Origin: an uncultured Sphingomonadaceae bacterium | GTDB lineage: Bacteria > Pseudomonadota > Alphaproteobacteria > Sphingomonadales > Sphingomonadaceae | Assembly (NCBI GenBank): GCA_964483275.1 | Contig: CAZACH010000001.1 | Location: 1-36,472, forward strand | DNA: 36,472 nucleotides | Direction of reading: 5' to 3' | In this document: positions 1-30,785 of the stretch, one piece after another | How the letters are laid out: the number at the start of each line of letters is the position of its first letter | How positions within the stretch are numbered: the first letter of the stretch is position 1 | Made by a program: the position numbers and the translations under genes | Notes under the pieces: generated by a model | Seen by the model: the letters and a program-made list of their open reading frames with translations, nothing else | Told to the model about the DNA's origin: nothing | Databases searched by the model: none

Positions 1-1097
1 CGGTGGTTGCCGTACCAGCCAAACGCGACATGATGCCGCGCGTCCTTGCGGGTGATGTCGAAGCGGTCCGGATCGGCGAAACGGGCCGGGTCGCGGTTCG
101 CCGCATCGAAGCGCAGCAATACCGGCGCGCCCTTCGGGATGGCGGTGCCGGCGAGTTCGGTGTCGCGGGTGGCGATGCGCCACATCGAGGTCGCCGGCGT
201 TTCATAGCGCAGCAACTCCTCGACCGCATTGGCGATCAGCGACGGATCGTTGCGCAGCATGTCCATCTGCTCGGGATGCCGCACCAACTGCACGAGACCG
301 CTCATCAGCGTGTTGCGCGTGGTCTCGTTGCCGGCCACGGCGATTTCGAGCGTCAGGGCGGTCGCCTCGTCGTCGGTCAGCGGCGGCACGCCGTCGACGC
401 CGACATGGACGAGGTTGGAAATCAGATCGTCCGCCGGCTCGGCGCGGCGCAGCGCCAGCCGCTCGCGAATGAAGCGGATGAACTGCACGACATTCTTCGC
501 CGCCTCGACCTCCTGCTCGGGCGTGCCCATACGGCTGACGAGCAGGATGGCGGAATCCGACCATTTACGCACCAGATGCCAATGATCGCGGTCCAGCCCC
601 AATATGTCGGCGATGACATAGGTGGGCAGCAGCACGGCGAATTCGTTGACGAAATCCGCCTCCGTCTTTTTCGCCATGTCGTCGAGCAACTGGGTGACGA
701 TGCGCTCGATCAGCGGTTGCAGATTGGCGATCCGGCCATGCGCGAACACCGCGTTGACCAGCGCGCGGGTGCGCTTGTGATCGGGATCGTCGGACACCAG
801 CAGCAGGCCCGAGCCTGCCGTGCCGACCTCGGCAAGGATCGCCAGCGCCTCGTGATTGTCCATGTTGGGGCGATTGGTGAGGTGCCCCATCTGCGACGAG
901 AAATCCTCGGTGCGCTTGGTCGCTTCCGACACCGCCGCAAAGCTGGTGACGAGATAGGCCTCCATGCCGCCGGGCACGGTCGCCTTCACCACCGGCCCGC
1001 TCTCCCGCAGCTCCGCGAGGAAGGCGTGGGGATAGGCCAGCACGGCGGGATCCGTGAATGCCGGCATCGCGTCGGCTTCCAGCACATCCGTGGTCAT
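1..1097 (-). CDS. Cytochrome P450 monooxygenase (partial; C-terminus lies beyond the left window edge)
   Basis: Absent from the ORF track because it has no stop inside the window. Hand translation of the minus strand from ATG (1097-1095; SD GGAGA about 7 nt upstream) gives an uninterrupted 365-codon frame: MTTDVLEADAMPAFTDPAVLAYPHAFLAELRESGPVVKATVPGG... P450 signatures present: AVAGNETT (I-helix), EELLRYETP (ExxR K-helix), FDAANRDPARFADPDRFD, and the start of the heme loop HVAFGWYGNH at the edge. The listed 3..1247(+) ORF is its antisense shadow. Confidence 0.9.
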   Translation of the reverse strand, partial: MTTDVLEADAMPAFTDPAVLAYPHAFLAELRESGPVVKATVPGGMEAYLVTSFAAVSEATKRTEDFSSQMGHLTNRPNMDNHEALAILAEVGTAGSGLLLVSDDPDHKRTRALVNAVFAHGRIANLQPLIERIVTQLLDDMAKKTEADFVNEFAVLLPTYVIADILGLDRDHWHLVRKWSDSAILLVSRMGTPEQEVEAAKNVVQFIRFIRERLALRRAEPADDLISNLVHVGVDGVPPLTDDEATALTLEIAVAGNETTRNTLMSGLVQLVRHPEQMDMLRNDPSLIANAVEELLRYETPATSMWRIATRDTELAGTAIPKGAPVLLRFDAANRDPARFADPDRFDITRKDARHHVAFGWYGNH

Positions 1098-1156
1098 CGC
1101 CCGTCTCCAGACCTGATCATTGAAATTCACCTCTCCGGCCTAGCCAGCCACTATAA

Positions 1157-1178
1157 ACATGCGTTACGTACCGAATGT
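1157..1178. promoter_or_regulatory. Imperfect 22-bp palindrome in the divergent P450/TetR control region; candidate TetR operator
   Basis: ACATGCGTTACGTACCGAATGT has 18 of 22 positions self-complementary (ACATnCGnTACGTAnCGnATGT). It sits in the 134-bp AT-richer spacer between the P450 start (1097) and the TetR start (1232). A tandem CTTATTG CTTATTG follows at 1185-1198. Confidence 0.35.
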
Positions 1179-1231
1179 AAGTTTCTTATTGCTTATTGTA
1201 AAGGGCCAGCCGGAAAGGCATTTTGCGGACA

Positions 1232-1876
1232 ATGGATATGCCAGTAACCAGCAAAAAGCCCGCAAAACTACGCCGTTCGCAGGGGGAGCGCAGCGAGGCC
1301 TCCCGCGCCAGCCTGATCGAAAGCGCGATTCGACACACCCGCGAACGGGGCCTCGCCGCCGTCAGCCTGGCGGACATCGCCGCCGATGCGAAGCTCAGTC
1401 GCGGTGCCATCCAGCATCATTTCAGCAGTCGGGCCGAACTGATCCTTGCCGCGATCAGCGAGCTGGATCGCCGCATCTGCGTGGCGCTGGAAGCCTATAC
1501 CGCCCCCGACGACGTGGCTGGCGTGGATCGTGTCGCGGTGATCTTCGACCATGTCATCGCACTGGCCGATTCATCGGATGTCGTCGCCGCCTATGATCTG
1601 TGGAGCGCCAGCCGCAGCGATCCGGCGCTCAGCCACCGGACGGCGGAACTGCAACGCCAGCTCACGGACCAGTTCCGCACCTTCTGGCGCCGCAACCTCG
1701 AAGGCCATATGCCGCCCGCCCTGGTGGAAATGAGCCTCGATATAACCTTGATGATCAATCAGGGCGCGGCCATGTCGCAATTGCTGCGCCATGCATCCGG
1801 GGACACGAAGCGCACGCTGCTCGAAGCGAAGGCGATGCTGCTGGAATTCATCGGCGGGCGCCTCGGCCAGGGATAG
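1232..1876 (+). CDS. TetR/AcrR-family transcriptional regulator
   Basis: ORF 1223..1876. N-terminal TetR helix-turn-helix: SRASLIESAIRHTRERGLAAVSLADIAADAKLSRGAIQHHFSSRAELILAAI. The ORF-track start is TTG 1223; I list ATG 1232 (ATG 1238 is also possible). Divergent from the P450 and 27 bp upstream of the next gene. Confidence 0.9.
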   Translation: MDMPVTSKKPAKLRRSQGERSEASRASLIESAIRHTRERGLAAVSLADIAADAKLSRGAIQHHFSSRAELILAAISELDRRICVALEAYTAPDDVAGVDRVAVIFDHVIALADSSDVVAAYDLWSASRSDPALSHRTAELQRQLTDQFRTFWRRNLEGHMPPALVEMSLDITLMINQGAAMSQLLRHASGDTKRTLLEAKAMLLEFIGGRLGQG

Positions 1877-1903
1877 GCCGGGTCCGCGAGGGGGAGGAAT
1901 GGA

Positions 1904-2959
1904 ATGGAATTGCTGAGGCGTCCGCTGGACGACTATATCAGGCACAGGTTCGGGCCGCAGGCGGAGCTGGTCAAGGAGGAGCGGTTTCCGCGCGGCTCGT
2001 CGCGCCTGACCTATTTCGTCGAATACCGCCCCGCGCCGGGCGCGGACGTCGTCCCCGTGGTGTTTCGCGGCGATTTCGCGGGCGGCGCGACCATCCACAC
2101 CTCGCTCGAACAGGAATATTACATGTATGAGCGGCTGGGCCACACCGATGTCCCCGTCGCCAGGGTGATCGCGTGGGAGGACGATCCCGACTGGACCGAC
2201 CGCCCCTTCTATATCCGCGAGCAGATCGACGGCAGCTGGATCGTCCCGCATGTCGACGATCCCGATCCCCGCTATGACGATCTGCGCATCGCGATCGCGA
2301 AGGAGCATCTGCGCAAGATCGCGATGGTCCACAAGGTCGACTGGAAGGCGCTGGGCCTCGACCAGCGCCTGCCCCCGCCGCCGGACAAGGCAGGCGCCGG
2401 CGCCTTCTTCATCGACCGGCTGGTCGCCACCTTGCGCGACTTTCAGCGCGAGCCGATGCCGGTCGTCAACGAGGCGCTCGCCGTCTTCCGCCGCGACATT
2501 CCGCCCGCCTCGGCCATCGTGCTGTGCAAGGGGACGAACGGGCGCGGCGAGGAGGTGTTCAGGGACGGCGAGATCGTCGCGATGAGCGACTGGGAGGAAG
2601 CCTCCATCGGCGATCCCGCCGCCGACTTCGCCAGCATGCAGGACATGTACCCCACGATCGTCCGCGACGGCGCGGAGATATGGAGCCTGCAACACGCCAT
2701 CGACTATTATAACCAGGTCTCCGGCCACGGCCTGACCATGGAGAACGTCCAGTTCTACCTGAAGCTGCGGACGCTCGGCGCGGTGCTGTACGGGCACAAG
2801 TCCGCCGTCATCATGCATGACGGCAATGCCGACATCCGCCAGGGCTGGACCGGCACCGAAGTCTTCTATCTGATGAAGCGCATGAACGGCGCGGTGGCCG
2901 GGATCTGCGATCCGGCCGACCCGCACTGGTTCGAGGAACTGAACGAGACCGTGGTATGA
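1904..2959 (+). CDS. Phosphotransferase (APH/choline-kinase fold) family protein with an atypical catalytic loop
   Basis: 351 aa, ATG with SD GGGGAGG 6 nt upstream. Family features: RGSSRLTYFVEY (nucleotide-loop region), VVFRGDFAGG, and the C-terminal SDWEEASIGDPAADFA block (DxE/GDP..D of APH-like kinases). The expected HxDxxxxN catalytic loop reads LCKGTNGRGEE instead (see findings). Confidence 0.8.
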   Translation: MELLRRPLDDYIRHRFGPQAELVKEERFPRGSSRLTYFVEYRPAPGADVVPVVFRGDFAGGATIHTSLEQEYYMYERLGHTDVPVARVIAWEDDPDWTDRPFYIREQIDGSWIVPHVDDPDPRYDDLRIAIAKEHLRKIAMVHKVDWKALGLDQRLPPPPDKAGAGAFFIDRLVATLRDFQREPMPVVNEALAVFRRDIPPASAIVLCKGTNGRGEEVFRDGEIVAMSDWEEASIGDPAADFASMQDMYPTIVRDGAEIWSLQHAIDYYNQVSGHGLTMENVQFYLKLRTLGAVLYGHKSAVIMHDGNADIRQGWTGTEVFYLMKRMNGAVAGICDPADPHWFEELNETVV

Positions 2960-3474
2960 AGCCCCTCCTGACGCCGACGGCCGGCGAAACGATCCGCAAC
3001 ATCCGCCAGGGGCTGGAGGACTGGATACGTCCGGCCACGCAAGGCTCCGCCGCCTATAGCTATGCGACGACCGCGATCGCGCTGTGCCATCATGTCGAGA
3101 GCCGGCTGGAGCTGGAAGGCCAGCAGCTGTTCGACGAGATTGCGCGGCTGCGTCCCCTGCTGGCGCGCGCCGCCGAAGTGATGGACGGGCACGACAAGGG
3201 CGCGGCGCTCGCCGCCGCCATCCGCCGCGCGCTGGCCGAGGAGCGCGACCCCGCCGTCTATCCCACGCTGTCCGCCACCGCCGAACAGGTCGCGCAACTG
3301 CGCCAGCTCGTCTGCGACATTCAGGACATCGTCATCCCGCAGGATGAGGCCGGGCAGGCGTCGGACGCGGTCAAGGCGCTGCGCGAGGACATCCGCAGCT
3401 ATATCGGCTGGCAGCTGGAGGAGCAGGGCAAGATCGTCGAGCCCGCCTTCCGGGGACGCGGCCCGCGCCGGTGA
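2956..3474 (+). CDS. Hypothetical helical protein, translationally coupled partner of the kinase-fold gene
   Basis: 172 aa. Its start ATG overlaps the upstream stop (ATGA at 2956-2959). The frame has strongly GC-rich third positions throughout, consistent with real coding. I recognise no family motif. It shows weak by-eye similarity to the N-terminal 140 aa of the second kinase-fold protein (29385..). Confidence 0.7.
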   Translation: MKPLLTPTAGETIRNIRQGLEDWIRPATQGSAAYSYATTAIALCHHVESRLELEGQQLFDEIARLRPLLARAAEVMDGHDKGAALAAAIRRALAEERDPAVYPTLSATAEQVAQLRQLVCDIQDIVIPQDEAGQASDAVKALREDIRSYIGWQLEEQGKIVEPAFRGRGPRR

Positions 3475-3499
3475 CGGCCATATCGACAGGAGAGGCAGG

Positions 3500-4276
3500 A
3501 TGACGGGATTTTTGCAGGGTCGGGTGGCGCTGGTCACGGGTGGCGGCAAGGGCATCGGGCGCGCGACCTGCGAGAAGCTGGCCGCCGAGGGCGCCAGCGT
3601 GCTGGTGGCAACGCGCGGCGCCGAGGCCGGGCAGGCCACGGTCGACGCCATCCGCGCGGCGGGCGGCACGGCCGAACTGGCGGCGATCGAAATCGGCGCG
3701 GACGGGTCGGCGGAACGGGTCGTGCAGGCGGCGCGGGATGCGTTCGGCGCGCTCGACATCCTGATCCACAATGCCGCCTATATCCCTTACGGGCCGATCG
3801 GCGACCTGCCCGACGCCGAATGGGCCAAGGCGATGGCGGTCGGGCCGGACAGCGCCTTTCGACTGCTCAAGGCGGCGCTGCCGCTGCTGCGGGAGAGCAA
3901 GCATGGCCGGGCGATCTTCGTCACCTCGCTCGCCGCCGGCCGCAGCATGTCGCGCAACCTCGTCGCCTATGGCGCGGCGAAGGGCGCGATCGAGGCCTTC
4001 GTCAAGGGCGCCGCGATGGAGCTGATCGCCGAGGGGATCACCGTCAACGCCGTCGCGCCGGGCGGCACCATGTCCGATGCGGTCAAGACCCAGATGAGCG
4101 CGGACGCCATCGCCGGGCTTGCCGCCATGCTGCCGGCCAAAAGGCTGGCCGAATGCGCGGAACTCGCCGACGTCATCGCCTTCGTCGCATCGGACGCGGC
4201 GCGCTTCGTCACCGGCCAGTCGATCTGTGTCGACGGCGGCCAGTCGCTGGGGCTGGACATCATCCTCGACAATTGA
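3500..4276 (+). CDS. Short-chain dehydrogenase/reductase (SDR) family oxidoreductase
   Basis: ORF 3344..4276 trimmed to ATG 3500 (SD AGGAGAGG just upstream). MTGFLQGRVALVTGGGKGIGRA (TGxxxGxG Rossmann), NAAY, catalytic YGAAKGA (YxxxK), and C-terminal FVTGQSICVDGG. Confidence 0.9.
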   Translation: MTGFLQGRVALVTGGGKGIGRATCEKLAAEGASVLVATRGAEAGQATVDAIRAAGGTAELAAIEIGADGSAERVVQAARDAFGALDILIHNAAYIPYGPIGDLPDAEWAKAMAVGPDSAFRLLKAALPLLRESKHGRAIFVTSLAAGRSMSRNLVAYGAAKGAIEAFVKGAAMELIAEGITVNAVAPGGTMSDAVKTQMSADAIAGLAAMLPAKRLAECAELADVIAFVASDAARFVTGQSICVDGGQSLGLDIILDN

Positions 4277-4314
4277 GCGGATAGCGGCGCTGCGCCGATG
4301 ACAGGAGAGAGAAC

Positions 4315-5328
4315 ATGGCCAAGCAATCCAACGACAAGCCCCGGATCGCCTTCTATGGCCTTGGCAATTACGGGCTGGAGGCGGCGCGCATCGCCGCCGC
4401 CAACCCGCATTGCACGATCGTCGCGGCCTATAACCGCGCCGGGCCGAAGGTCGGCCAGGACCTCGGCCGCCTCGCCGGCCTCGACCGCGATCTCGGCGTC
4501 GTCGTGCAGGATTGCGACACCGCCGATTTCGCCGCGGCCGGCGCCGATGTCGCGATCGTCGCCGTCACCGACCGGCTGGCGAAGAACCTGCCAATCTATG
4601 AAAAGCTGCTGGGTGCCGGCCTCAACGTGATCTGCCATGGCGCCGAGGCCTATTTCCCCTATGGCGCCGATGCCGCGCTGGCCGCCCGGATCGACGCGCT
4701 GGCCAAGGCCAATGAGGTCAGCTTCACCGGCACCGGCATCTGGGACTTTTCGCGCATCTGGGCCGGCATCCTCGCCTTGGGGCCGGCAACCGAGATCCGC
4801 TCGCTGTTCCATCGCAGCATCACCGACGCGCAGTCGGCGACGCTCGACCTTGCCAAGGTGTGCGGCGTCACGCTGACCCAGGCGGAGTTCGCCGAGCAGA
4901 ATCACGACCGCATCGGCGACCTCTACAAGCTGATCCCGCACCATGTGCTGCATGCGCTGGGCTATACCGTCACCAGCGTCACCGAACGGCGCGAGCCGGT
5001 GCTGTCCGACGCGCCGGTTCACAGCCATCTCGCCGGCCGCGACCTCGAACCCGGCATCGTGCTGGGCATCCGCATCGTCGCCGAGGTCGAAACCGCCGAG
5101 GGCGTCACCGCGACCTGCCATATGGAACTGCGCATCCTGCAGGAGGACGAGAGCGAGCACATGCTGTGGGCGGTGGACGGCAAGCCCGCCACGAAGGTGC
5201 GGGTGGATCGCACCGATTCCCTCCACACCTCCGCCGCCTGCCTCGTCAATCGCGTTCCCAACGTGGTCGCCGCCGCGCCCGGCATTCGTCTGGTGTCGGA
5301 ACTGGGTGTGCTCAGGCCCTGGCTGTAA
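4315..5328 (+). CDS. NAD(P)-binding oxidoreductase, DapB N-terminal-like / 2,4-diaminopentanoate (amine) dehydrogenase-like family
   Basis: 337 aa, SD AGGAGAG 5 nt upstream. N-terminal Rossmann RIAFYGLGNYGLEAARI. The C-terminal ...NRVPNVVAAAPGIRLVSELG resembles the tail I recall for DapB-like amine dehydrogenases. Functional assignment is tentative. Confidence 0.55.
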   Translation: MAKQSNDKPRIAFYGLGNYGLEAARIAAANPHCTIVAAYNRAGPKVGQDLGRLAGLDRDLGVVVQDCDTADFAAAGADVAIVAVTDRLAKNLPIYEKLLGAGLNVICHGAEAYFPYGADAALAARIDALAKANEVSFTGTGIWDFSRIWAGILALGPATEIRSLFHRSITDAQSATLDLAKVCGVTLTQAEFAEQNHDRIGDLYKLIPHHVLHALGYTVTSVTERREPVLSDAPVHSHLAGRDLEPGIVLGIRIVAEVETAEGVTATCHMELRILQEDESEHMLWAVDGKPATKVRVDRTDSLHTSAACLVNRVPNVVAAAPGIRLVSELGVLRPWL

Positions 5329-5355
5329 GGCGGACGGGTTCGGGAGAAACAGGCA

Positions 5356-6534
5356 ATGCCGGTACAATCTGACGTGGTGCTCTCCGTCGACGCCCTGATG
5401 GCCGCCGCGCGCGCGGAGACGGGCATCGAGATCGTCGATGTCGAGGCCGTCGAGCCGCTCGGCGCGCTGGTCGACTCGCTCAACGCGGAATCGGGGCTGC
5501 ACGCCGCCGGGCGCAAGGGCATGGCCGGCAAGATCATCCGCATGCTGAGCAACCGCCTGCGCATGCAGCGGGATTTCCGCGCCCATCCCGAGATCGCCGA
5601 TCAGGTCGTCAATGCGCCGATCTTCTTCTGCGGCATGGGCCGCACCGGATCGACCAAGGCGCAGAAGCTGCTGGCGATGTCGGGCGAGTTCAACTGGCTG
5701 AGCTATTGGCGGGCGCTCAATCCCAGCCTCATCACCGGCGACCGCACTGAATCGCCGCAGGCCCGGATCGACGACGCCGACGAGTTCACCCGCTGGTTCG
5801 ACCAGTCCAGCCCCGACCTCAAATATGCCCATTCCTTCGAGACGCACGAGCCGGAGGAGGAGAGCCTGATCCTGGAACACAGCTTGCGCAGCCCGACATG
5901 GCTGGGCTGGGCGCCGATCGACGGCTATCTGGCATGGCTGATGGGTCAGGACCAGACCGCGCAATTCCGCTATCTGCGCGACACGCTCAAATATCTGCAA
6001 TGGCAGGGCATCGCCGATCCCGACAAGCGCTGGGTGCTGAAAAGCCCGCTCTATACCGGCATGGAGCCGTCACTGCTGGACGTGTTTCCCGACGCCCGGC
6101 TGATCATGACGCATCGCGAGCCGGCCAGGACGATCCCGTCGGCGCTGCGGCTGATGGAGCTGTTCCACAAGCCCTTCACCGACCGGCTGAGCAGCACCGA
6201 AAACTATCTGCGCGGCCAGATCGCCGGGATCGACGCGCACCTCGCGCACCGTGCCCGGCCGGAGGGGCTGGACGTGCTCGACCTCGACTTCAGGGAGATC
6301 ACCGGCGCGCCCGAAAAGATGATCCGGCGCGTGTTCGATTATATCGGCAAGCCGCTCTCCAGCGAAGCGCTGGCGCGCATGATGCGGTGGAATGACGACA
6401 ATCCGCAGCACAAGCACGGCAAGAAGCATGTCTATGCGCTGGAAGATTACGGCCTCAGCGAAGCCCAGATCAACGAGATGTTCGCCGGCTATCGCCAGTT
6501 GATGAAGGATCGCCTCGCGACAGCGGACCGCTGA
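5356..6534 (+). CDS. Sulfotransferase family protein (PAPS-dependent type)
   Basis: 392 aa, SD GGGAGA 8 nt upstream. 5'-phosphosulfate-binding loop FFCGMGRTGSTKAQKLL (5632-5658). 3'-phosphate-binding-like segment LIMTHREPARTIPSALRL. Size and layout are typical of bacterial Sulfotransfer_3-type proteins. Confidence 0.75.
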   Translation: MPVQSDVVLSVDALMAAARAETGIEIVDVEAVEPLGALVDSLNAESGLHAAGRKGMAGKIIRMLSNRLRMQRDFRAHPEIADQVVNAPIFFCGMGRTGSTKAQKLLAMSGEFNWLSYWRALNPSLITGDRTESPQARIDDADEFTRWFDQSSPDLKYAHSFETHEPEEESLILEHSLRSPTWLGWAPIDGYLAWLMGQDQTAQFRYLRDTLKYLQWQGIADPDKRWVLKSPLYTGMEPSLLDVFPDARLIMTHREPARTIPSALRLMELFHKPFTDRLSSTENYLRGQIAGIDAHLAHRARPEGLDVLDLDFREITGAPEKMIRRVFDYIGKPLSSEALARMMRWNDDNPQHKHGKKHVYALEDYGLSEAQINEMFAGYRQLMKDRLATADR

Positions 6535-6581: not shown

Positions 6582-6699
6582 CCTCCGTTCGTCCTGAGCC
6601 TGTCGAAGGACGACTGCGCCCCCTTGCGGGTCCGCGCCGGACCTTACGGGTGGGAAGGCCTGAGCAGACGTCCTTCGACAGGCTCAGGACGAACGGAGG
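6582..6699. repeat. REP/MITE-like element copy 1: perfect 31-bp inverted repeat with a 56-nt spacer
   Basis: Left arm CCTCCGTTCGTCCTGAGCCTGTCGAAGGACG (6582-6612) is the exact reverse complement of 6669-6699. It lies in the convergent gap between the sulfotransferase stop (6534) and the ACAD stop (6734). A second copy lies at 24211-24328. Confidence 0.85.
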
Positions 6700-6733: not shown

Positions 6734-7900
6734 TTAATAGGATTTCGGCAACCCCAGCACCTTTTCGGCGATGAAGTTCATGATCATTTCCGGGCTGACA
6801 GGCGTAATGACCGGCAGGATCGAATCCCGGAACAGTCGTTCGACCTGATATTCCTTGGCATAGCCCATGCCGCCATGCGTCATGACCGCGCGGGTGCAGG
6901 CGTTGAAGCAGGCGCGGCCGGCGAGGAACTTGGCGGTATTGGCCTCGGCGCCGCAGGACTTGCCGGCATCATAGAGATAGGCGGCGCGCATCGCCATCCA
7001 GAAGGCGGATTCCAGCTCCATCCAGTTTTCGGCGAGCGGATGGGCGATGCCCTGGTTCTTGCCGATCGGCCGGCCGAAGACCACGCGCTCCCGCGCATAT
7101 TGCGCCGCGCGCGACAGGGCGTTCTGGCCGAAGCCGATCGCCTCCACCGCCACCAGGATGCGTTCGGGGTTGAGGCTGTGGAGGATGCACTTGAAGCCGT
7201 CCCCCTCCGCGCCGATGCGGTCTTCTTCCGGCACGAAATAATCGTCGATGAAAGTGATGTTCGAATCGACGGCGTTGCGCCCCATCTTGGGGATTTTCGT
7301 GACCTCGATCTGCGTCTTGTCGAGATCGGTGTAGAACAGCGTCATGCCGTCGGTCGGCTTCTTGCACGCCTCCTTGGGCGTCGTCCGCGTCAACAGCAGG
7401 ATCTTGTTCGCGACCTGCGCGGAGGAGGTCCATATCTTGCGCCCGGTGACGCGATAGCCGCCATCGACCTTCCTCGCGAAGGTGCTGATGCTGGTCGTGT
7501 CGAGGCCGGCGTCCGGCTCGGTGACGCCGAAACAGGCCTTGTCGGTGCCGGCGATCAGGCCGGGCAGCATGCGCTGCTTCTGCTCGGGCGTGCCATAGAC
7601 GACGACCGCATGCGGCCCGAACAGGTTGAGGTGCAGGGCGCCCGCCGCCGAATAGCCGCCGCTGCCGGAGGTGACGGTATGCATCATGATCGCCGCCTCG
7701 GTGACGCCGAGGCCCGCGCCGCCCAGCTCCTCCGGCATGGTGATGCCCAGCCAGCCGGCATCCGCCATGGCGCGGTGGAACTCGTGCGGAAAGCGCTGTT
7801 CCTCGCTCGCGGTGCTCCAATATTCATCGTCGAAGCGGGCGACGATCTTCTTCACCTCGTCGCGGATGATTTCATGATCCGCCGAAAGCTCGATTTCCAT
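6734..7900 (-). CDS. Acyl-CoA dehydrogenase family protein
   Basis: 388 aa, SD GAGGG 7 nt upstream. ACAD blocks: WLGITMPEELGGAGLG, CFGVTEPDAGLDTTSI, GRKIWTSSA, GAEGDGFKCILHSLNPERILVAVEAIG, and THGGMGYAKEYQVERLFRD. Confidence 0.9.
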   Translation of the reverse strand: MEIELSADHEIIRDEVKKIVARFDDEYWSTASEEQRFPHEFHRAMADAGWLGITMPEELGGAGLGVTEAAIMMHTVTSGSGGYSAAGALHLNLFGPHAVVVYGTPEQKQRMLPGLIAGTDKACFGVTEPDAGLDTTSISTFARKVDGGYRVTGRKIWTSSAQVANKILLLTRTTPKEACKKPTDGMTLFYTDLDKTQIEVTKIPKMGRNAVDSNITFIDDYFVPEEDRIGAEGDGFKCILHSLNPERILVAVEAIGFGQNALSRAAQYARERVVFGRPIGKNQGIAHPLAENWMELESAFWMAMRAAYLYDAGKSCGAEANTAKFLAGRACFNACTRAVMTHGGMGYAKEYQVERLFRDSILPVITPVSPEMIMNFIAEKVLGLPKSY

Positions 7901-8024: not shown

Positions 8025-10421
8025 TCAGAACCGGACGGTGCCGCGCAGGATCACCTCACGGCCCCGGTTGATGGCCGACACCGAGTCGCCGAGCACCCCT
8101 GGCGTCACCCCCGGCGCGGTGCCGGTGAACGGCCGGTCGGAGGTGCGCGTCCAGAAATAATCCTCGGTCAGGTTGCGCCCGATCAGCGCCAGCTCATAGC
8201 GATCGTCCGTCGTCCCGATGCGCACCGAGGCGTTGAACAGCGTGTAGGAGGGGCTGCGTCCGCCGGGCGAGGATGTCGCATCGGTGAGGTAGCCGTCCGA
8301 ATAGACCATGTCGCCGGTGAAGCCGATCTTGAACGCATCGGAGACGTTGGTGTCATAGCCGAAGCCCAGGCTGCCGCTCCATTCCGGCATGCGGATCAGC
8401 TCGGTGCCCGACAGGTCCTGCGCCAGGATCGTCTCGCCGGTCTGGCGGCTGATCTGGTCGACGCACGGCACGGGCGAGCCGGCATTCTGCCCGCGATAGC
8501 ATTGCCCCTGATAGTCGGTGTAGCGGCCATGGCCATAGGCCAGCGCGCCGAACAGCCTGAAGCCCGCCAGCGCGCGCGGCGCATAGTCGAAGTCGAACTC
8601 AAGCCCCTTGGTGCGCACGCCGCCGGCGTTGGTCAGGCGCTGGACGATGCCGCTGACCGTCACCTGCACCTGCAGGTCGGTGACCTTGTAGGTATAGGCG
8701 GAGAGGCCGAGGCGCAGCTGGTTTTCGAGCAGATAGGCTTTGACCCCCGCCTCCCAGCCCTTCACGAGCTGCGGATCATAGGTGAGGTTCGTCGCGAAAT
8801 CGGTGGCGCCGGAGTTGAACCCGCCCGACAGGAAGCCCTCCTTGTACGATCCATAGACGGTGAGGTCGGCGCTTGGCCGCCAGCTCAGCGTCGCCTCGGG
8901 CGACAGATTGTTGAAGCTGACCCGATCGACGGGGGTATCGACATCGACGCGGCCATTGTCCCGCCCGGCCGGCGTGGCCGTGGTCGGATCGCTTTCGAGG
9001 AAGGCGAGGCGCTTCCTCTCATGCGAGTAGCGCGCGCCGACGGACAGTTCGAGCGTGTCGGTGAAGCGTATCATGGATTGCAGGAAGACCGAATAGGCCG
9101 TGCCCTTCTGCCGCAGCAGATAGTCGTTCACCTCCAGCGGATAGATGCCGCCCATCGCCGGCGTGCCGAGGAAGGTGTGCGAACCGTTGGTGACCTTGCT
9201 GTCCTGGTAATAGCCGCCGAGCGTGAAATCGACCGGACCGCCGAAATCGGTCGCGAGCCGCAATTCCTGTGAAATCTCCCTGATGTCGAGGACATTATAG
9301 CTCGGCAGCAGGATTTCCGGCGTATATCCGGCCGAATAATTGGCGAGATTGTCGAGCGAGACGTCGTAGATGCCGGACACCGATGTCAGCAAAACTGTCG
9401 GCGTGAGCTGGTAATTCATGACCAGCGAGCCGAGGAGCTGCTTCTGGTCGAGGAACGTCGTGCCGTCGCCCCAGCGCGCGTCATACTGGTCATAGCCGGG
9501 GCCGAGGTCGGAGACGCTGACCGTGTTGTTCGCCTTGCAGTCGTCGACCCCGCCGCCCTGCGGGCTGCCGGTCGGGCAGTTGACGAACTGGACATTGGCC
9601 GTCGACGAGGCGCCCGAGCGTTCGCCGTAGGTGAGCTTAAGGGTCGCGTCGAAACCGCTCAGATCGTCATATTTCAGTGTGCCGCGCACGCCCCAATTCT
9701 CCTGCTTGGGCGCGCGCTTGCGGGCCGGCTGGAGGGCGGCGTCGGCGGGAATCTGGCTCTTCAGCCAGCCGTCCATGTCCGAATAATAGCCGGCGACGCG
9801 AAAGCCGAGACTGTCGGTGAGCGGGCCGGACAGGAAGCCGTCCACCATATATTCCCGCCCCTCGAACTCATATCCGCCCGAGAGCTTGCCCTGCAATGTA
9901 TCGGTCGGATCGGCGGTGCGGATGGTGACGACGCCGCCGGGGCTGTTCTTGCCGAAGAACAGGGCTTGCGGGCCTTTCAGAACCTCGATCTGCGCGAGGT
10001 CGAACTCGCCCATCCGGCGCACCGAGGCGCGGGCGACGGCGACGCTGTCGATGTTGAACGACACCGCCTGATCGCCGAACGGGTTGGCGTCCGAGGCGCT
10101 GATGCCGCGCAGCGAGATCGAGCCGCCCTGCACCGTGCCGCCGCCTTCGCCGAGCACCAGCGCGGGGGTGATCGTGGCCAGGCTGTCGAGATTGTCGATA
10201 CCGCGTTTTTCCAGGTTTTCGCCGGTGAACGCCGTCACCGCGACCGGCACGGAGATCAGCGTTTCATTGCGTTTGCGCGCGGTCACGATGATCGCGGAAG
10301 ATCCCTGCGGATCGGCGATGCTGGCGGCCTGCTCGGCGCCGCTCTGCGCGAAGGCGGGCGCCGCCCCGCCCAGCATGGGCAGGACGAGCATCGAGCATGA
10401 CAGAAGCTTGAATCTCGGCAT
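8025..10421 (-). CDS. TonB-dependent outer-membrane receptor
   Basis: ORF 8025..10616 trimmed to ATG 10421 (SD GGAGAG 3-4 nt upstream). Signal peptide MPRFKLLSCSMLVLPMLGGAAPAFAQ. Plug motifs IIVTARKRNETLISVPVAVTAF and VLKGPQALFFGKNSPGGVVTI. Long beta-barrel ending in the terminal aromatic ...LRGTVRF. Confidence 0.92.
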   Translation of the reverse strand: MPRFKLLSCSMLVLPMLGGAAPAFAQSGAEQAASIADPQGSSAIIVTARKRNETLISVPVAVTAFTGENLEKRGIDNLDSLATITPALVLGEGGGTVQGGSISLRGISASDANPFGDQAVSFNIDSVAVARASVRRMGEFDLAQIEVLKGPQALFFGKNSPGGVVTIRTADPTDTLQGKLSGGYEFEGREYMVDGFLSGPLTDSLGFRVAGYYSDMDGWLKSQIPADAALQPARKRAPKQENWGVRGTLKYDDLSGFDATLKLTYGERSGASSTANVQFVNCPTGSPQGGGVDDCKANNTVSVSDLGPGYDQYDARWGDGTTFLDQKQLLGSLVMNYQLTPTVLLTSVSGIYDVSLDNLANYSAGYTPEILLPSYNVLDIREISQELRLATDFGGPVDFTLGGYYQDSKVTNGSHTFLGTPAMGGIYPLEVNDYLLRQKGTAYSVFLQSMIRFTDTLELSVGARYSHERKRLAFLESDPTTATPAGRDNGRVDVDTPVDRVSFNNLSPEATLSWRPSADLTVYGSYKEGFLSGGFNSGATDFATNLTYDPQLVKGWEAGVKAYLLENQLRLGLSAYTYKVTDLQVQVTVSGIVQRLTNAGGVRTKGLEFDFDYAPRALAGFRLFGALAYGHGRYTDYQGQCYRGQNAGSPVPCVDQISRQTGETILAQDLSGTELIRMPEWSGSLGFGYDTNVSDAFKIGFTGDMVYSDGYLTDATSSPGGRSPSYTLFNASVRIGTTDDRYELALIGRNLTEDYFWTRTSDRPFTGTAPGVTPGVLGDSVSAINRGREVILRGTVRF

Positions 10422-10724
10422 ATTCTCTCCCCTCGATGTGCCGGCCCGATGTTCATCATTTTTGGAGTGGACGGCCGGTCTGGTGGCGGAAGCAAAGGTG
10501 CCTGAAGTCGCGACGGCCGGATATCGCAGCACGTCCGAAAAGGCATACCGAAACGCCGAGGGTCGGACGAAGGGTTCAAGAATGCCGACCGATCTGAATA
10601 GATAGCCGGCGATCAAAAGTTAAGATTCGGACGCGGCCGGCATTCCGGGCGAAAGGCACCCTGTGTGCCGGACGATCCCGCAGTTTGTCCGGCCCTATAT
10701 AATGAATTGTTCGAGGAGAGAGAT

Positions 10725-29384: not shown

Positions 29385-30785
29385 ATGAGCATGGCCCAAT
29401 ATCTCTGGAGCGCGGCGACGGCGCTGCGGCTGCAAGTCCGACCGGCGGTCGAGGAAAACAGCGCGCGCGACGCGCTGGACAACAGCATCCGGGTCTTGAC
29501 GGCCGTCGCCAACGCGCTGGAGCCGGAAGCCGCCGCGCCGCCGCCGCCGGCGCTTGCCGGCCGGGCAGAGGCCGCCACCGACCATCTGGGCGGTCCGCCC
29601 GAAAATGCCGCCGCGCGCCGCGCCAGCGGCACGGCGATCGCCGAGGTCGCAGCCGGTTTCGAGAAGAACGGCGATATCGCATCGGACGAAGCGCGCGCCG
29701 CCATCGCCTGGGAAAAGGCGATGCTCGACGCGAGCGTCGCCGCCTTCGACGCCGTCGAACGCGCCCTGCCCGCCACCGAGGTCGATCCGGCGCAGAATAT
29801 TGATCCGGCGGCGCTTGAGCGGTTCCTGCGCGGCTGGAGCGGCAACCAGGCGCTGGCCGTCGAGGAGTTCAAGCTGGTCGTCGGCGGCCGTTCGCGCCAG
29901 ACGGCGCTGTTCAAGGTCGCCAATGCGCCCGATCTGCCCGCCGCCCTCGTCGTGCAGCGCGGTATCCCCGGCCTCGTCGGATTTGCCAGCGAGAGGTTGC
30001 AGTTCAACCTGCTGAGCACGCTTCGCGACGCCGGCATGCGGGTGCCCCGCCCGATTCTGGTGGAGGAGGCCAGCGAGCATCTGGGCGCGCCGTTCATGAT
30101 CGTCGAACGGTCGCCGGGCAGCCCGGTGCTGACCGATTACTGGGGCGGGCCGGATTCCGAGGGCGTCATCCTCGACCTCGCGCGCGAAATGGCGCTGCTC
30201 CATGCCCAGCCGCTGGGCGCGCTGGCGGACCAGCTGCCGCAGTCCCGGCAAAGCTATGACATCGAAGGCTGGAAGGCCGAGCTGGAGACGCTGGCCAATG
30301 ACTGGAACAGCCTCGCCCACTGGCCGTCGGTCACGATGTCGGCGGTGATCGCGTGGCTGCGCGCCAATGTCGATTGCCTCGACGACCGCCGCGGCATCGT
30401 CCACAACGACATGGTGTTCCACAACATCCTGGCGGAAGACGGCCGGATCTCCGCGATCCTCGACTGGGAACAGGTCAGCATCGGCCATCCGGGCGAAGAC
30501 CTCGGCTATTGCTATCCCTATGTCGCGCCCGCGATCGACTGGGACAAGTTCCTCGCCGCCTACCGCGCCGCCGGCGGCCCCGACATCCCGCAGCGGCAGA
30601 TCTCCTATTTCGCGCTGCGCGCCGGCCTGCGCCTGATGATCCTGGTCATGCAGGGCGGCCGCGATACGTTCGAGAAGGGCCAGAACGACAATGTGCTGGT
30701 CGCCAGCGCCGGCGCCCACTTCACGCAGCGGCTGCTGCATCGCGTCGCGGGCGTGCTGGCATCGGTGCTCGACCGCGCCGACTGA
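29385..30785 (+). CDS. Phosphotransferase (APH/choline-kinase fold) family protein with a roughly 140-aa N-terminal extension
   Basis: 466 aa. The kinase-fold region begins near aa 144: LERFLRGWSGNQALAVEEFKLVVGGRSRQTALFKV aligns with the N-terminus of the 1904..2959 product. Catalytic loop intact: IVHNDMVFHN (H340, D342, N347; D342 codon at 30408-30410) and ILDWEQVSIGHPGEDLG (D360). Confidence 0.85.
   Translation: MSMAQYLWSAATALRLQVRPAVEENSARDALDNSIRVLTAVANALEPEAAAPPPPALAGRAEAATDHLGGPPENAAARRASGTAIAEVAAGFEKNGDIASDEARAAIAWEKAMLDASVAAFDAVERALPATEVDPAQNIDPAALERFLRGWSGNQALAVEEFKLVVGGRSRQTALFKVANAPDLPAALVVQRGIPGLVGFASERLQFNLLSTLRDAGMRVPRPILVEEASEHLGAPFMIVERSPGSPVLTDYWGGPDSEGVILDLAREMALLHAQPLGALADQLPQSRQSYDIEGWKAELETLANDWNSLAHWPSVTMSAVIAWLRANVDCLDDRRGIVHNDMVFHNILAEDGRISAILDWEQVSIGHPGEDLGYCYPYVAPAIDWDKFLAAYRAAGGPDIPQRQISYFALRAGLRLMILVMQGGRDTFEKGQNDNVLVASAGAHFTQRLLHRVAGVLASVLDRAD

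What the first reader, a model, noticed from the sequence alone, without database searches (positions are those of the whole stretch)
1232..6534. TetR-led operon combining a kinase-fold protein, a PAPS-type sulfotransferase and two NAD(P) oxidoreductases, divergent from a P450
Six genes on one strand are separated by 25-38 bp gaps or a 4-bp overlap, so they look like one transcript. A P450 is transcribed divergently from the same 134-bp control region, which carries a 22-bp near-palindrome.

Both a kinase-fold protein and a sulfotransferase (GMGRTGSTK 5'-PSB loop at 5632-5658; HREPARTIPS 3'-PB-like) install leaving groups on hydroxyls. Known precedents for activation followed by elimination are phosphorylation of 4-hydroxyacyl-CoA by LvaAB and ACAD10/11, and sulfation by CurM/OLS-type sulfotransferase-thioesterases.

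Hypothesis: hydroxylation by the P450, then redox steps, then O-sulfation or O-phosphorylation. I do not recognise this gene combination as a described pathway. Sulfotransferases are unusual in catabolic operons, and no PAPS-synthesis genes are in the window.
Basis: inference. Interest (0 to 1): 0.6.

Follow-up and report, generated by a model that had tools for sequence, protein, structure and literature searches.

The report
Mosaic lipid-catabolic cluster with reductase-sulfotransferase pair
The six genes are really there and are probably read as one transcript, but they are a patchwork of separately inherited modules; the notable one is a widely conserved, undescribed gene pair in which an NAD(P) reductase sits directly in front of a mycobacterial Stf1-type sulfotransferase whose substrate has never been found.

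Summary
Six co-directional genes lie divergent from a P450: TetR, APH-fold, a small protein, SDR, DapB-like and a sulfotransferase. Gaps are 25-38 bp, with one 4-bp overlap. The window is a contig of a landfill sphingomonad MAG.

Comparison with 42 genome loci and 80 metagenome loci resolves it into modules:

- **P450/TetR.** The pair recurs in the closest relative.
- **APH-fold + 172-aa helical partner (+SDR).** The partner follows the APH gene in 38 of 39 loci. The APH fold is closest to ACAD10/11 and LvaA kinases, but the catalytic HxDx4N is replaced by an invariant KGTNGxGE. Ordinary kinase chemistry is therefore doubtful.
- **DapB-like + sulfotransferase.** They are adjacent in 36 of 40 informative loci, with a median gap of about 12 bp, and the paired sulfotransferases form one clade.

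The sulfotransferase belongs to the Stf1/Stf9 family, with intact PAPS motifs. The DapB-like protein belongs to the native amine dehydrogenase family but lacks the catalytic Glu. Natural sulfotransferase-SDR fusion proteins also exist.

My best reading is that the reductase makes an alcohol, which the sulfotransferase then sulfates, on a lipid-like substrate. No paper describing this pair was found.

The parts
3..1130 (-). Cytochrome P450, with its C-terminal part cut off by the window start. The likely start is ATG 1097 or GTG 1130.
   Evidence: PF00067, 88 bits. The nearest solved structures are CYP107A1/EryF, CYP142 and CYP125, at E 1e-54 to 1e-51. An 87% identical orthologue lies beside a TetR in L092, and 60-68% orthologues lie near APH-small in L098, L099, L103 and L126.
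1098..1231 (.). Divergent control region carrying a 22-bp near-palindrome at 1157-1178.
   Evidence: Inverted repeat I1 has 14-nt overlapping arms, 86% complementary. The only sigma-70-like site lies here, on the minus strand. The outer ACAT/ATGT half-sites are only partly kept in L092.
1232..1876 (+). TetR-family regulator.
   Evidence: PF00440, 41 bits. A 59% identical orthologue lies next to the P450 orthologue in L092.
1904..2959 (+). APH/ACAD10-11-type kinase-fold protein with a non-canonical catalytic loop. KGTNGRGE (residues 209-216, about 2528-2551) replaces HxDx4N. The DWE metal-binding motif (residues 229-231) is kept.
   Evidence: PF01636, 36.9 bits. A family profile hits 3dxp at E 2e-15 and the ACAD11 kinase domain 8v3u at E 6e-14, which aligns HGDxxxDN against KGTNGLGE. 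K209, G210, T211, N212, G213, G215, E216 and E217 are invariant in 23 homologues. A paralogue at 29385-30785 keeps HNDxxxxN.
2956..3474 (+). 172-aa all-helical partner of the APH-fold protein, overlapping it by 4 bp. It belongs to an unannotated family.
   Evidence: It follows the APH gene in 38 of 39 loci where APH identity is at least 47%. The same holds for the own-genome paralogue pair on C21. The AlphaFold model has pLDDT 92 and five helices and has no PDB fold match. The link to DUF6285 is only faint.
3500..4276 (+). Classical SDR oxidoreductase. It travels with the APH-small module.
   Evidence: PF13561 178 bits and PF00106 154 bits. An 83% identical orthologue lies directly after APH-small in L091 and L092, where no DapB-like or sulfotransferase gene follows.
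4315..5328 (+). DapB-like NAD(P)-dependent oxidoreductase of the native amine dehydrogenase / 2,4-diaminopentanoate dehydrogenase superfamily, lacking the catalytic Glu. Ala110 sits at position P3, within the motif CHGAEA at about 4633-4650.
   Evidence: PF19328 and PF01113. NF040740 scores 98.7 bits, far below its cut-off of 400. It hits 6iaq MsmeAmDH at E 3e-34 and 6iau CfusAmDH at E 3e-24, and Cfus E108 aligns with A110. Orthologues read CHG[AGVS][EQ][AS]. It lies directly upstream of the sulfotransferase in 36 of 40 informative loci.
5356..6534 (+). Stf1/Stf9-family PAPS-type sulfotransferase. The 5'-PSB loop is at 5632-5658. The 3'-PB motif HREPARTIPS is at about 6112-6141.
   Evidence: PF13469, 88.9 bits. 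A family profile hits M. tuberculosis STF1 (2zq5) at E 3e-52 over positions 6-374, and 2z6v at E 3e-48. R96, T97, G98, S99, K101, H253, R254 and S262 are invariant in 22 homologues. All sulfotransferases preceded by a DapB-like gene form one clade.
6582..6699 (.). 118-bp REP-like hairpin directly after the sulfotransferase gene, in the gap where it converges with an ACAD gene. It probably marks the 3' end of the transcript.
   Evidence: The long inverted arms are visible in the sequence. Summed contig depth is up to about 620 here against about 8 in flanking bins of run X1, with weaker peaks in the other three runs, so the element is multi-copy.
6734..7900 (-). Conventional acyl-CoA dehydrogenase, convergent with the cluster. 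Context only.
   Evidence: Three ACAD Pfam domains. It has no HCMR motif of the LvaC/ACAD11 type.
8025..10616 (-). TonB-dependent receptor. Context only.
   Evidence: PF00593 and PF07715. TonB receptors also flank the pair in L008, L010 and L035, and flank APH-small in L092 and C21.

Best explanation
The region is a probably co-transcribed but evolutionarily mosaic accessory cluster. It sits in a lipid and acyl-CoA catabolic island of a landfill sphingomonad and is built from three separately conserved modules.

**Module A: P450 and its TetR.** They are divergent neighbours.

**Module B: kinase-fold protein, small partner and SDR.** The kinase-fold protein is of the ACAD10/11 and LvaA type, but its catalytic loop is rewritten to an invariant KGTNGxGE. 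It is tightly coupled to a 172-aa helical partner and, in close relatives, to the SDR. It probably binds an acyl-CoA-like or nucleotide ligand. It is unlikely to be an ordinary Asp-base kinase.

**Module C: the DapB-like oxidoreductase and the sulfotransferase.** The oxidoreductase belongs to the native amine dehydrogenase family but lacks the catalytic Glu. The sulfotransferase is of the Stf1 family and is PAPS-dependent.

For module C, I infer that the reductase uses NAD(P)H to turn a carbonyl on a lipophilic substrate (hydroxy/oxo fatty acid, isoprenoid or steroid-like) into a defined secondary alcohol. The sulfotransferase then O-sulfates that alcohol with PAPS made by the genome's APS kinase.

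What is shown: gene order, module conservation, motif states, fusion proteins and the clade structure. What is inferred: co-transcription, the order of the two reactions, the substrate class, and any link between modules B and C.
For: **Module structure**
- The DapB-like gene lies directly upstream on the same strand in 36 of 40 informative sulfotransferase loci. These span Steroidobacteraceae, Halieaceae, Porticoccaceae, Novosphingobium, and MAGs labelled Acidimicrobiia and Gemmatimonadaceae. The median gap is about 12 bp and the other neighbours vary.
- All 35 sulfotransferases preceded by a DapB-like gene fall on one side of a branch with 96% support. Paralogues from actinobacteria and sphingomonads lack the partner.
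- The small partner follows the APH gene in 38 of 39 loci.
- In the closest relatives, L091 and L092, APH-small-SDR is kept without module C, and P450/TetR lie 6 kb away.

**The sulfotransferase looks functional**
- It is homologous to solved STF1 over its full length and both PAPS-binding motifs are invariant.
- An APS-kinase gene is present in the genome.
- ErSULT, a sulfotransferase whose predicted structure matches STF1, sulfates 3- and 16-hydroxyhexadecanoate with PAPS (PMC13449962).

**Reductase-sulfotransferase coupling**
- Four protein clusters are natural fusions of an Stf1-family sulfotransferase with a C-terminal SDR.
- SDR-sulfotransferase adjacency occurs on own-genome contig C67 and in actinobacterial loci.
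- In M. tuberculosis, Rv3530c ('possible oxidoreductase') neighbours Rv3529c (Stf1), downstream of a KstR operator.

**The reductase is probably not an aminating enzyme**
- Position P3 is not Glu.

**Lipid context**
- Neighbours of the pair are acyl-CoA ligases, ACADs, enoyl-CoA hydratases, thiolases and SDRs.
- An ACAD and a TonB receptor follow in the window.
Against: - No expression or biochemical data exist, and no RNA run holds the locus.
- One complete genome, G844, has a 64% identical DapB-like orthologue but no Stf1-family sulfotransferase. The reductase can therefore work without it.
- Two in-clade sulfotransferases, L028 and L032, lack the partner within 10 kb.
- The order 'reduce, then sulfate' is inferred from chemistry, not tested. 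The enzyme could instead oxidise an alcohol.
- The conserved E/Q next to P3 might substitute for the missing Glu.
- Modules B and C are adjacent again in the distant locus L165. Stf1-family paralogues lie near APH-small in L106, L109 and L114. A functional link between the modules is therefore not excluded.
- The tree is the quick version, not the full search.
Confidence: 0.55

Rival explanations
1. One reading: all six genes plus the P450 form one dedicated pathway. The P450 hydroxylates, redox steps follow, and O-sulfation and/or O-phosphorylation then installs a leaving group for elimination. This would be a sulfate or phosphate analogue of LvaAB, ACAD10/11 or CurM.
For: - Tight co-directional spacing with no internal terminator-like sites.
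- Both modules are adjacent again in the distant metagenome locus L165, which reads SDR-APH-small-EcKL kinase-DapB-like-sulfotransferase.
- Stf1-family paralogues lie within about 10 kb of APH-small in L106, L109 and L114.
- Neighbours are acyl-CoA enzymes.
- The APH fold is closest to the ACAD11 kinase domain.
Against: - The set is not co-conserved. The closest relatives lack DapB-sulfotransferase after APH-small-SDR and have P450/TetR 6 kb away.
- P450 orthologues track APH-small, not the sulfotransferase.
- The kinase-fold protein lacks HxDx4N, which is essential in LvaA and ACAD10/11.
- No LvaC-type ACAD with an HCMR motif is in the window.
- No lyase or thioesterase candidate for sulfate elimination was identified.
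Confidence: 0.2
2. The DapB-like protein is a true amine dehydrogenase that makes an amine, and the sulfotransferase N-sulfonates it to give a sulfamate product.
For: - The best solved relatives are native amine dehydrogenases: 6iaq at E 3e-34 and 6iau.
- An aminotransferase gene lies within 8 kb of the pair in 3 loci.
Against: - The catalytic Glu at P3 is Ala here and A/G/V/S in all orthologues. In AmDH4 its loss nearly abolishes activity (PMC9325545).
- The family survey sets Glu-less enzymes apart as group G5 and chose enzymes for testing partly on the presence of the P3 Glu (PMC11164908).
- The Ord equivalog model scores 98.7 bits against a cut-off of 400.
Confidence: 0.07
3. The sulfotransferase-fold protein does not transfer sulfate. 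It might, for example, use its 3'-phosphoadenosine pocket to bind the CoA moiety of an acyl-CoA, or it might have a non-catalytic role.
For: - This is an inference only: CoA and PAPS share a 3'-phospho-ADP-like moiety.
- The neighbours are acyl-CoA enzymes.
- The substrate of Stf1 is still unknown (PMC13449962).
Against: - The 5'-PSB and 3'-PB motifs are invariant, together with a conserved acidic HEPEEES stretch.
- ErSULT, whose predicted structure matches STF1, is an active PAPS-dependent enzyme.
- I know of no precedent.
Confidence: 0.05
4. The adjacency has no functional meaning: unrelated accessory genes were packed together by rearrangement, and DapB-sulfotransferase synteny is mere hitch-hiking.
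For: - The cluster is mosaic in the closest relatives.
- A REP-like repeat flanks it.
- The genes are sporadic: the APH gene was found in 0 of 200 other sampled Sphingomonadales genomes, the DapB-like gene in 1 of 400 other sampled Pseudomonadota genomes, and the sulfotransferase family in 8 of 100 other sampled Sphingomonadales genomes.
Against: - DapB-sulfotransferase adjacency, with gaps of about 12 bp, persists across several classes while everything around it changes.
- APH-small is equally persistent.
- Sulfotransferase-SDR fusions exist.
Confidence: 0.1

Closest known systems
Mycobacterium tuberculosis Stf1 (Rv3529c, PDB 2ZQ5) and M. avium Stf9 (PDB 2Z6V)
   Same: - Same fold and family. 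A profile of the window's sulfotransferase clade hits 2zq5 at E 3e-52 over nearly the full length, including the N-terminal helices.
- Both PAPS-binding motifs are shared.
- Stf1 also sits next to an oxidoreductase gene (Rv3530c), in a lipid and cholesterol catabolic region under a TetR-type repressor, KstR.
   Different: - Identity to actinobacterial members is only about 25-32%.
- The window's clade is a separate branch, defined by a DapB-like partner rather than an SDR partner.
- The substrate of Stf1 is itself unknown, so no function can be transferred.
ErSULT of Eubacterium ramulus, a hydroxy-fatty-acid sulfotransferase (PMC13449962)
   Same: It is a Sulfotransfer_3 enzyme whose predicted structure matches STF1, and it is PAPS-dependent. 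It sulfates 3- and 16-hydroxyhexadecanoate, a substrate class that fits the lipid context seen here.
   Different: Its sequence relationship to the window protein was not tested, because no sequence was at hand. It comes from a gut Firmicute, and no reductase partner is reported.
Native amine dehydrogenases (MsmeAmDH 6IAQ, CfusAmDH 6IAU) and 2,4-diaminopentanoate dehydrogenase (Ord)
   Same: Same two-domain DapB_N/DAP_DH_C architecture, with clear homology at E 3e-34. The Rossmann GxGxxG motif is present.
   Different: - The catalytic Glu (P3; E108 in CfusAmDH) is Ala, Gly, Val or Ser here.
- This corresponds to the 'G5, mainly no catalytic glutamate' group, which the published screen did not favour because enzymes were chosen partly on the presence of the P3 Glu.
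- That paper's genomic-context analysis, reported for its G1 group, gave no clear metabolic role. A term search of the main text found no mention of a sulfotransferase.
LvaA/LvaB of Pseudomonas putida and the kinase domains of ACAD10/ACAD11 (4-hydroxyacyl-CoA kinases)
   Same: - The ACAD11 kinase domain is among the closest solved folds.
- A small partner gene follows directly, as lvaB follows lvaA.
- An SDR is in the same unit, as with lvaD.
- The context is acyl-CoA catabolism.
   Different: - HxDx4N is replaced by an invariant KGTNGxGE, with Thr for the catalytic Asp and Glu for the Asn.
- In ACAD10/11 the Asp-to-Ala mutant is kinase-dead.
- No LvaC-type ACAD is present.
- Elsewhere the commonest neighbour is a DUF7064/7065-like protein.
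- Homology of the small partner to LvaB was not tested.
cyp128-stf3 of M. tuberculosis (sulfomenaquinone) and the CurM/OLS sulfotransferase-thioesterase
   Same: Both are precedents, recalled from my own knowledge, for a P450 hydroxylation followed by sulfation and for sulfate acting as a leaving group. CurM sulfotransferase is a weak profile hit at E 0.0017.
   Different: - Here the P450 is not co-conserved with the sulfotransferase.
- There is no thioesterase or lyase partner.
- The CurM hit is marginal and partial.

Membership tests
PAPS-dependent sulfotransferase, Stf1/Stf9 subfamily (Pfam Sulfotransfer_3) | Match to PF13469 above the gathering score. | tested here: met
   88.9 bits against a cut-off of 27.
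PAPS-dependent sulfotransferase, Stf1/Stf9 subfamily (Pfam Sulfotransfer_3) | 5'-phosphosulfate-binding loop (P-loop-like xRTGST/K). | tested here: met
   GMGRTGSTK at residues 93-101. R96, T97, G98, S99 and K101 are invariant in 22 homologues and align with GLVRTGTT of 2zq5.
PAPS-dependent sulfotransferase, Stf1/Stf9 subfamily (Pfam Sulfotransfer_3) | 3'-phosphate-binding motif (R...S after a beta-strand). | tested here: met
   H253, R254 and S262 are invariant and align with THRP...S of 2zq5.
PAPS-dependent sulfotransferase, Stf1/Stf9 subfamily (Pfam Sulfotransfer_3) | Full-length homology to a solved Stf1/Stf9, including the N-terminal helical extension. | tested here: met
   Profile positions 6-374 align with 2zq5 residues 10-382 at E 3e-52.
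PAPS-dependent sulfotransferase, Stf1/Stf9 subfamily (Pfam Sulfotransfer_3) | PAPS-dependent sulfuryl transfer to an acceptor. | not testable with these tools
   This needs an enzyme assay. An APS-kinase gene is present in the genome, but it is near-universal in the order, at 98 of 101 genomes including this one.
Native amine dehydrogenase / 2,4-diaminopentanoate dehydrogenase | DapB_N plus DAP_DH_C two-domain fold, with homology to solved native amine dehydrogenases. | tested here: met
   PF19328 and PF01113. 6iaq at E 3e-34 and 6iau at E 3e-24.
Native amine dehydrogenase / 2,4-diaminopentanoate dehydrogenase | Catalytic glutamate at pocket position P3 (E108 in CfusAmDH, E102 in AmDH4). | tested here: not met
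   Cfus E108, the first E of EEAFYPW, aligns without gaps to Ala110 of HGAEAYFPY. Orthologues carry A, G, V or S at this position.
Native amine dehydrogenase / 2,4-diaminopentanoate dehydrogenase | NCBIfam Ord equivalog score. | tested here: not met
   NF040740 scores 98.7 bits against a cut-off of 400.
LvaA / ACAD10-11-type 4-hydroxyacyl-CoA kinase | APH3-type kinase fold. | tested here: met
   PF01636, 36.9 bits. Profile hits to 3dxp at E 2e-15 and to 8v3u at E 6e-14.
LvaA / ACAD10-11-type 4-hydroxyacyl-CoA kinase | Invariant catalytic motif HxDx4N. | tested here: not met
   The aligned residues are K209-G-T211-N-G-R-G-E216, which are invariant in the family. The motif and the kinase-dead Asp-to-Ala mutant are described in bioRxiv 10.1101/2024.01.09.574893.
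LvaA / ACAD10-11-type 4-hydroxyacyl-CoA kinase | Metal-binding Asp of the DxE/DFG-equivalent motif. | tested here: met
   D229-W-E is invariant and aligns with DWE of 3dxp and ACAD11.
LvaA / ACAD10-11-type 4-hydroxyacyl-CoA kinase | Partner ACAD of the LvaC type (HCMR motif, Asp base) that removes the phosphate. | tested here: not met
   None of the three ACADs in the window has an HCMR-like motif in a simple motif search.
LvaA / ACAD10-11-type 4-hydroxyacyl-CoA kinase | Small LvaB-like partner encoded directly downstream. | tested here: inconclusive
   The arrangement is met, in 38 of 39 loci. Homology to LvaB could not be tested because no LvaB sequence was available. Only a faint DUF6285 signal was seen.
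TetR-regulated divergent operon | TetR gene next to a palindromic operator in a divergent promoter region. | tested here: inconclusive
   The TetR_N domain and the 22-bp near-palindrome are present. The palindrome is only partly conserved in L092. Binding was not tested.

The most novel reading that the evidence does not exclude
Stf1-family sulfotransferases, each with its dedicated NAD(P) reductase, may form a 'reduce-then-sulfate' activation step in bacterial lipid catabolism. In this reading, sulfate serves as a leaving group to remove an otherwise unactivatable oxygen function. This would parallel the phospho-elimination of LvaAB and ACAD10/11. The HxDx4N-less kinase-fold protein and its helical partner, found beside the pair here and in L165, could then be the component that handles the sulfated or activated acyl-CoA intermediate rather than acting as a kinase.
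Probability: 0.1. Interest if true: 0.8.

Novelty: new variant of a known kind. Interest (0 to 1): 0.5.

Why it matters
**Two orphan families each gain a testable handle.**
- Stf1 of M. tuberculosis still has no known substrate (PMC13449962).
- For the native amine dehydrogenase family, the published genomic-context analysis (reported for group G1) gave no clear metabolic role, and the Glu-less G5-type members were not favoured for testing (PMC11164908).

**What this work adds.**
- One clade of Stf1-type sulfotransferases is almost always encoded directly behind a Glu-less member of that reductase family.
- Other Stf1-type enzymes are fused to, or adjacent to, SDRs.

**What follows from it.**
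- Co-express reductase and sulfotransferase, feed oxo- and hydroxy-lipids, and look for a +80 Da product.
- Cultured carriers of the cassette exist for genetics: Pseudomaricurvus alcaniphilus and Novosphingobium sp. JCM 18896.

The work also flags a large, conserved kinase-fold family with a rewritten catalytic loop and an obligate small partner. Current annotation calls this family 'aminoglycoside phosphotransferase'.

Tried and rejected
**Tools and searches that gave nothing**
- The first genome-contig scan, with the single sulfotransferase protein, found nothing. The scan with an alignment gave 42 loci.
- No RNA holder is listed for the locus, so there is no expression evidence either way. 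Only short DNA contigs could be laid.
- Full-text searches for 'native amine dehydrogenase' with sulfotransferase, and for DUF6285, DUF7064 and DUF7065, returned no paper.
- Earlier scan notes hold nothing on this pair from other DNA.

**Ideas tested and dropped**
- My initial guess of a mycobacterial origin, based on GC content and the gene set, was wrong. The genome is a sphingomonad MAG.
- I asked whether actinobacterial Stf1-like genes carry the DapB-like partner. None of about 29 loci does.
- I asked whether a DUF7064-like gene precedes SDR-sulfotransferase in two actinobacterial loci, as a possible Rv3531c analogue. None was found.
- I asked whether the long open frames spanning DapB-like and sulfotransferase in L026 and L037 are fusions. 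They are not, because the two genes are in different frames.

**The small partner**
- It has no Pfam family above threshold, no PDB sequence match and no PDB fold match.

**Uninformative or weak results**
- APS-kinase presence is not a discriminating clue, because it occurs in 98 of 101 Sphingomonadales genomes including this one.
- Operator conservation between the window and L092 is weak.

Full report
**1. What is there**

The window is contig C1 of a 2.3-Mb, 78.6%-complete MAG. Earlier notes and the nearest homologues place it in the sphingomonads. Near-identical DNA occurs in landfill, leachate, biofilm and wastewater metagenomes.

- P450, 3-1130, minus strand, cut by the window start
- TetR, 1232-1876
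- APH-fold protein, 1904-2959
- 172-aa ORF without a Pfam family, 2956-3474, overlapping the APH gene by 4 bp
- SDR, 3500-4276
- DapB_N/DAP_DH_C protein, 4315-5328
- Sulfotransfer_3 protein, 5356-6534

The gaps are 27, 25, 38 and 27 bp, and each start has a Shine-Dalgarno-like purine run. The 22-bp near-palindrome at 1157-1178 is real. No terminator-like hairpin was found inside the cluster, against 2.8 expected by chance. A 118-bp REP-like hairpin follows the sulfotransferase gene. Short contigs from four public runs bridge all the junctions, so the arrangement is not an assembly chimera. Downstream, on the minus strand and convergent with the cluster, lie a conventional ACAD (6734-7900) and a TonB-dependent receptor (8025-10616).

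**2. Is the six-gene set conserved? No; it resolves into modules**

I collected 42 loci around sulfotransferase homologues from species-representative genomes and searched them with all seven window proteins.

- Only the DapB-like gene travels with the sulfotransferase. It lies directly upstream on the same strand in 35 loci and is divergent in one (L030). That is 36 of the 40 loci whose upstream side is visible. The estimated median gap is 12 bp.
- Clustering of all neighbouring ORFs shows nothing else above the level of generic families: SDRs in 22 loci, P450s in 8, acyl-CoA ligases in 7, ACADs in 5, enoyl-CoA hydratases in 4, TonB receptors in 4 and thiolases in 3.
- A quick maximum-likelihood tree of 84 family members puts all 35 sulfotransferases preceded by a DapB-like gene on one side of a branch with 96% SH-aLRT support. 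Two members without the partner (L028, L032) fall on that side too. The other side holds 46 rows: actinobacterial Stf1-like genes, sphingomonad paralogues and the fusion proteins.
- One row of that tree, L063, comes from the unpublished genome G151.
- Actinobacterial homologues, at 25-32% identity, never have the DapB-like partner in the 29 loci read.

From the kinase side, 80 metagenome loci around APH homologues show a second module.

- The 172-aa gene follows the APH gene in 38 of 39 loci where APH identity is at least 47% and the downstream DNA is visible.
- The same holds for a paralogous pair on own-genome contig C21.
- The closest relatives, L091 and L092 (APH 82% identical), keep APH-small-SDR, with the SDR 83% identical. 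A TonB receptor gene follows there, not DapB-sulfotransferase.
- In L092 the P450 (87%) and TetR (59%) orthologues sit 6 kb upstream, separated from APH by an autotransporter gene and a TonB-receptor gene.
- P450 orthologues of 60-68% identity recur near APH-small in L098, L099, L103 and L126. The P450 therefore belongs with the kinase-fold module rather than with the sulfotransferase.
- Both modules are adjacent again in only one other locus, L165, which reads SDR-APH-small-EcKL-type kinase-DapB-like (68%)-sulfotransferase (56%).
- More distant Stf1-family paralogues lie within about 10 kb of APH-small in L106, L109 and L114.

All the genes are sporadic:
- The APH gene was not found in 200 other sampled Sphingomonadales genomes.
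- The DapB-like orthologue was found in 1 of 400 other sampled Pseudomonadota genomes.
- Stf1-family genes were found in 8 of 100 other sampled Sphingomonadales genomes.

**3. The sulfotransferase**

- A profile of 22 homologues hits the solved M. tuberculosis STF1 (2zq5, E 3e-52) and 2z6v (E 3e-48) over nearly the full length. I recall 2z6v as M. avium STF9; that identification is from memory.
- The literature confirms that 2ZQ5 is STF1, that Rv3529c is Stf1, and that its substrate is unknown.
- The 5'-phosphosulfate loop (GMGRTGSTK), the 3'-phosphate motif (H253, R254 ... S262) and an acidic HEPEEES stretch are conserved.
- The genome encodes an APS kinase, as do 98 of 101 Sphingomonadales genomes including this one. 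PAPS is therefore available, but this says little.
- ErSULT, an enzyme whose predicted structure matches STF1, sulfates 3- and 16-hydroxyhexadecanoate with PAPS.

I conclude that this is a genuine PAPS-type O-sulfotransferase and that a lipid acceptor is plausible.

**4. The DapB-like protein**

- Its best solved relatives are native amine dehydrogenases: MsmeAmDH 6iaq at E 3e-34 and CfusAmDH 6iau at E 3e-24.
- The catalytic Glu of that family is E108 in CfusAmDH, pocket position P3. In the PDB chain, which is offset by 4, it is the first E of EEAFYPW. This is verified by F140, F144 and W145 falling into place.
- That Glu aligns without gaps to Ala110 of HGAEAYFPY. The 37 orthologues read CHG[AGVS][EQ][AS].
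- The family survey sets such Glu-less enzymes apart as group G5. It chose enzymes for testing partly on the presence of the P3 Glu. Its genomic-context analysis, reported for group G1, gave no clear metabolic role.
- That paper also cites evidence that native amine dehydrogenases can reduce carbonyls to alcohols without ammonia (reference list).
- The protein is therefore an NAD(P)-dependent oxidoreductase of this fold, but it fails the defining test for an amine dehydrogenase.
- One complete genome, G844, has a 64% identical orthologue next to an Old Yellow Enzyme gene and an SDR gene, and has no Stf1-family gene at all. The reductase is therefore not strictly dependent on the sulfotransferase.

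**5. Independent support for reductase-sulfotransferase coupling**

- A search for longer relatives found four protein clusters of 721-770 aa. In each, an Stf1-family sulfotransferase domain, 34-35% identical to the window protein over 94% of its length, is fused to a C-terminal SDR.
- SDR-then-sulfotransferase adjacency occurs on own-genome contig C67 and in actinobacterial loci L077/L172 and L082/L173.
- In M. tuberculosis, the table of cholesterol-region genes lists Rv3531c, Rv3530c ('possible oxidoreductase') and Rv3529c in sequence, and a KstR operator lies in front of Rv3531c.

The recurring logic is 'NAD(P) oxidoreductase plus Stf1-type sulfotransferase'. The window's clade has recruited a DapB-like enzyme for the first role.

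**6. The kinase-fold protein and its partner**

- The family profile is closest to 3dxp and to the kinase domain of ACAD11 (8v3u).
- Where those proteins have HGDxxxxN, this family has an invariant K209-G-T211-N-G-x-G-E216, while the DWE metal-binding motif is kept.
- A second APH gene in the window (29385-30785) has the normal HNDxxxxN.
- In LvaA and ACAD10/11, HxDx4N is invariant and the Asp-to-Ala mutant is kinase-dead.
- The rewritten loop is conserved rather than decayed. The protein is therefore functional, but probably not as an Asp-base kinase.
- The partner is a confidently modelled five-helix protein with pLDDT 92. It has no fold or sequence match in the PDB and only a faint DUF6285 signal.
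- Elsewhere the commonest neighbour of APH-small is a roughly 400-aa DUF7064/7065-like protein, found in 39 of 80 loci. In this genome it lies on another contig, C63.
- No LvaC-type ACAD with an HCMR motif is in the window.

**7. Verdict**

The cluster is likely one transcript here. Evolutionarily it is a patchwork of three modules: P450/TetR, APH-small-SDR, and DapB-like-sulfotransferase.

The best-supported mechanism concerns the last pair. The reductase makes an alcohol on a lipid-like substrate and the sulfotransferase sulfates it with PAPS. The step order and the substrate are inferred. Whether the sulfate ester is an end product or a leaving group is open.

The pair is, as far as the searched literature and the scan's own notes show, undescribed. 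I class it as a new variant of a known kind and rate it of moderate interest. It gives two orphan families, Stf1 and the Glu-less native amine dehydrogenases, a concrete and testable partner.

No RNA data exist for the locus.

Noticed in passing
window 6582-6699: The REP/MITE-like 118-bp hairpin after the sulfotransferase gene has a summed contig depth of up to about 620, against about 8 in neighbouring bins of run X1, with weaker peaks in the other three runs. It is therefore a high-copy repeat in these communities.
   Followed up: partly
window 29385-30785: A second APH-fold gene of 466 aa has a canonical HNDxxxxN loop and a long N-terminal extension. It is only 19% identical to the first APH-fold protein.
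   Followed up: partly
L098, L105, L114, L120, L161 and others; own genome C63:2759-3970: A roughly 400-aa protein family starting MLTPYDE(F/Y)PVHQ has no Pfam hit of its own. The Atlas links it to DUF7064/7065. It lies near the APH-small pair in 39 of 80 metagenome loci, often directly upstream. The own-genome copy is not in the window.
   Followed up: partly
P0242-P0245 (database proteins): These are natural fusion proteins of 721-770 aa, with an Stf1-family sulfotransferase at the N-terminus and an SDR at the C-terminus.
   Followed up: partly
G002 (Novosphingobium sp. JCM 18896), loci L049-L058: One cultured Novosphingobium genome gave 15 matches to the Stf1-family profile, which I read as about a dozen genes. 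Only one of them has the DapB-like partner.
   Followed up: partly
L016 (JBBAFY010000074.1) and database protein P0209: A MAG labelled Tissierellales carries both the DapB-sulfotransferase cassette and an APH homologue of proteobacterial type. This is probably a binning or labelling artefact.
   Followed up: no
L092:4217-7357: In the closest relative, a 1046-aa autotransporter gene and a TonB receptor gene lie between the TetR and the APH-small-SDR unit. A Rieske oxygenase alpha subunit lies beyond the P450.
   Followed up: partly
L171 (G844:C12): A complete 6.8-Mb genome has a 64% identical Glu-less DapB-like orthologue. It is convergent with an Old Yellow Enzyme gene and near an SDR gene. 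The genome has no Stf1-family sulfotransferase.
   Followed up: yes
L165:2507-3682: In the only other locus that combines both modules, an EcKL/APH-type kinase gene lies between the small partner and the DapB-like gene. A DUF7064 protein follows the sulfotransferase.
   Followed up: partly
window 4304: Contigs from two independent runs, X3 and X7, carry a 2-nt GA insertion in the SDR/DapB-like intergenic gap. This is strain variation in the junction between modules.
   Followed up: no
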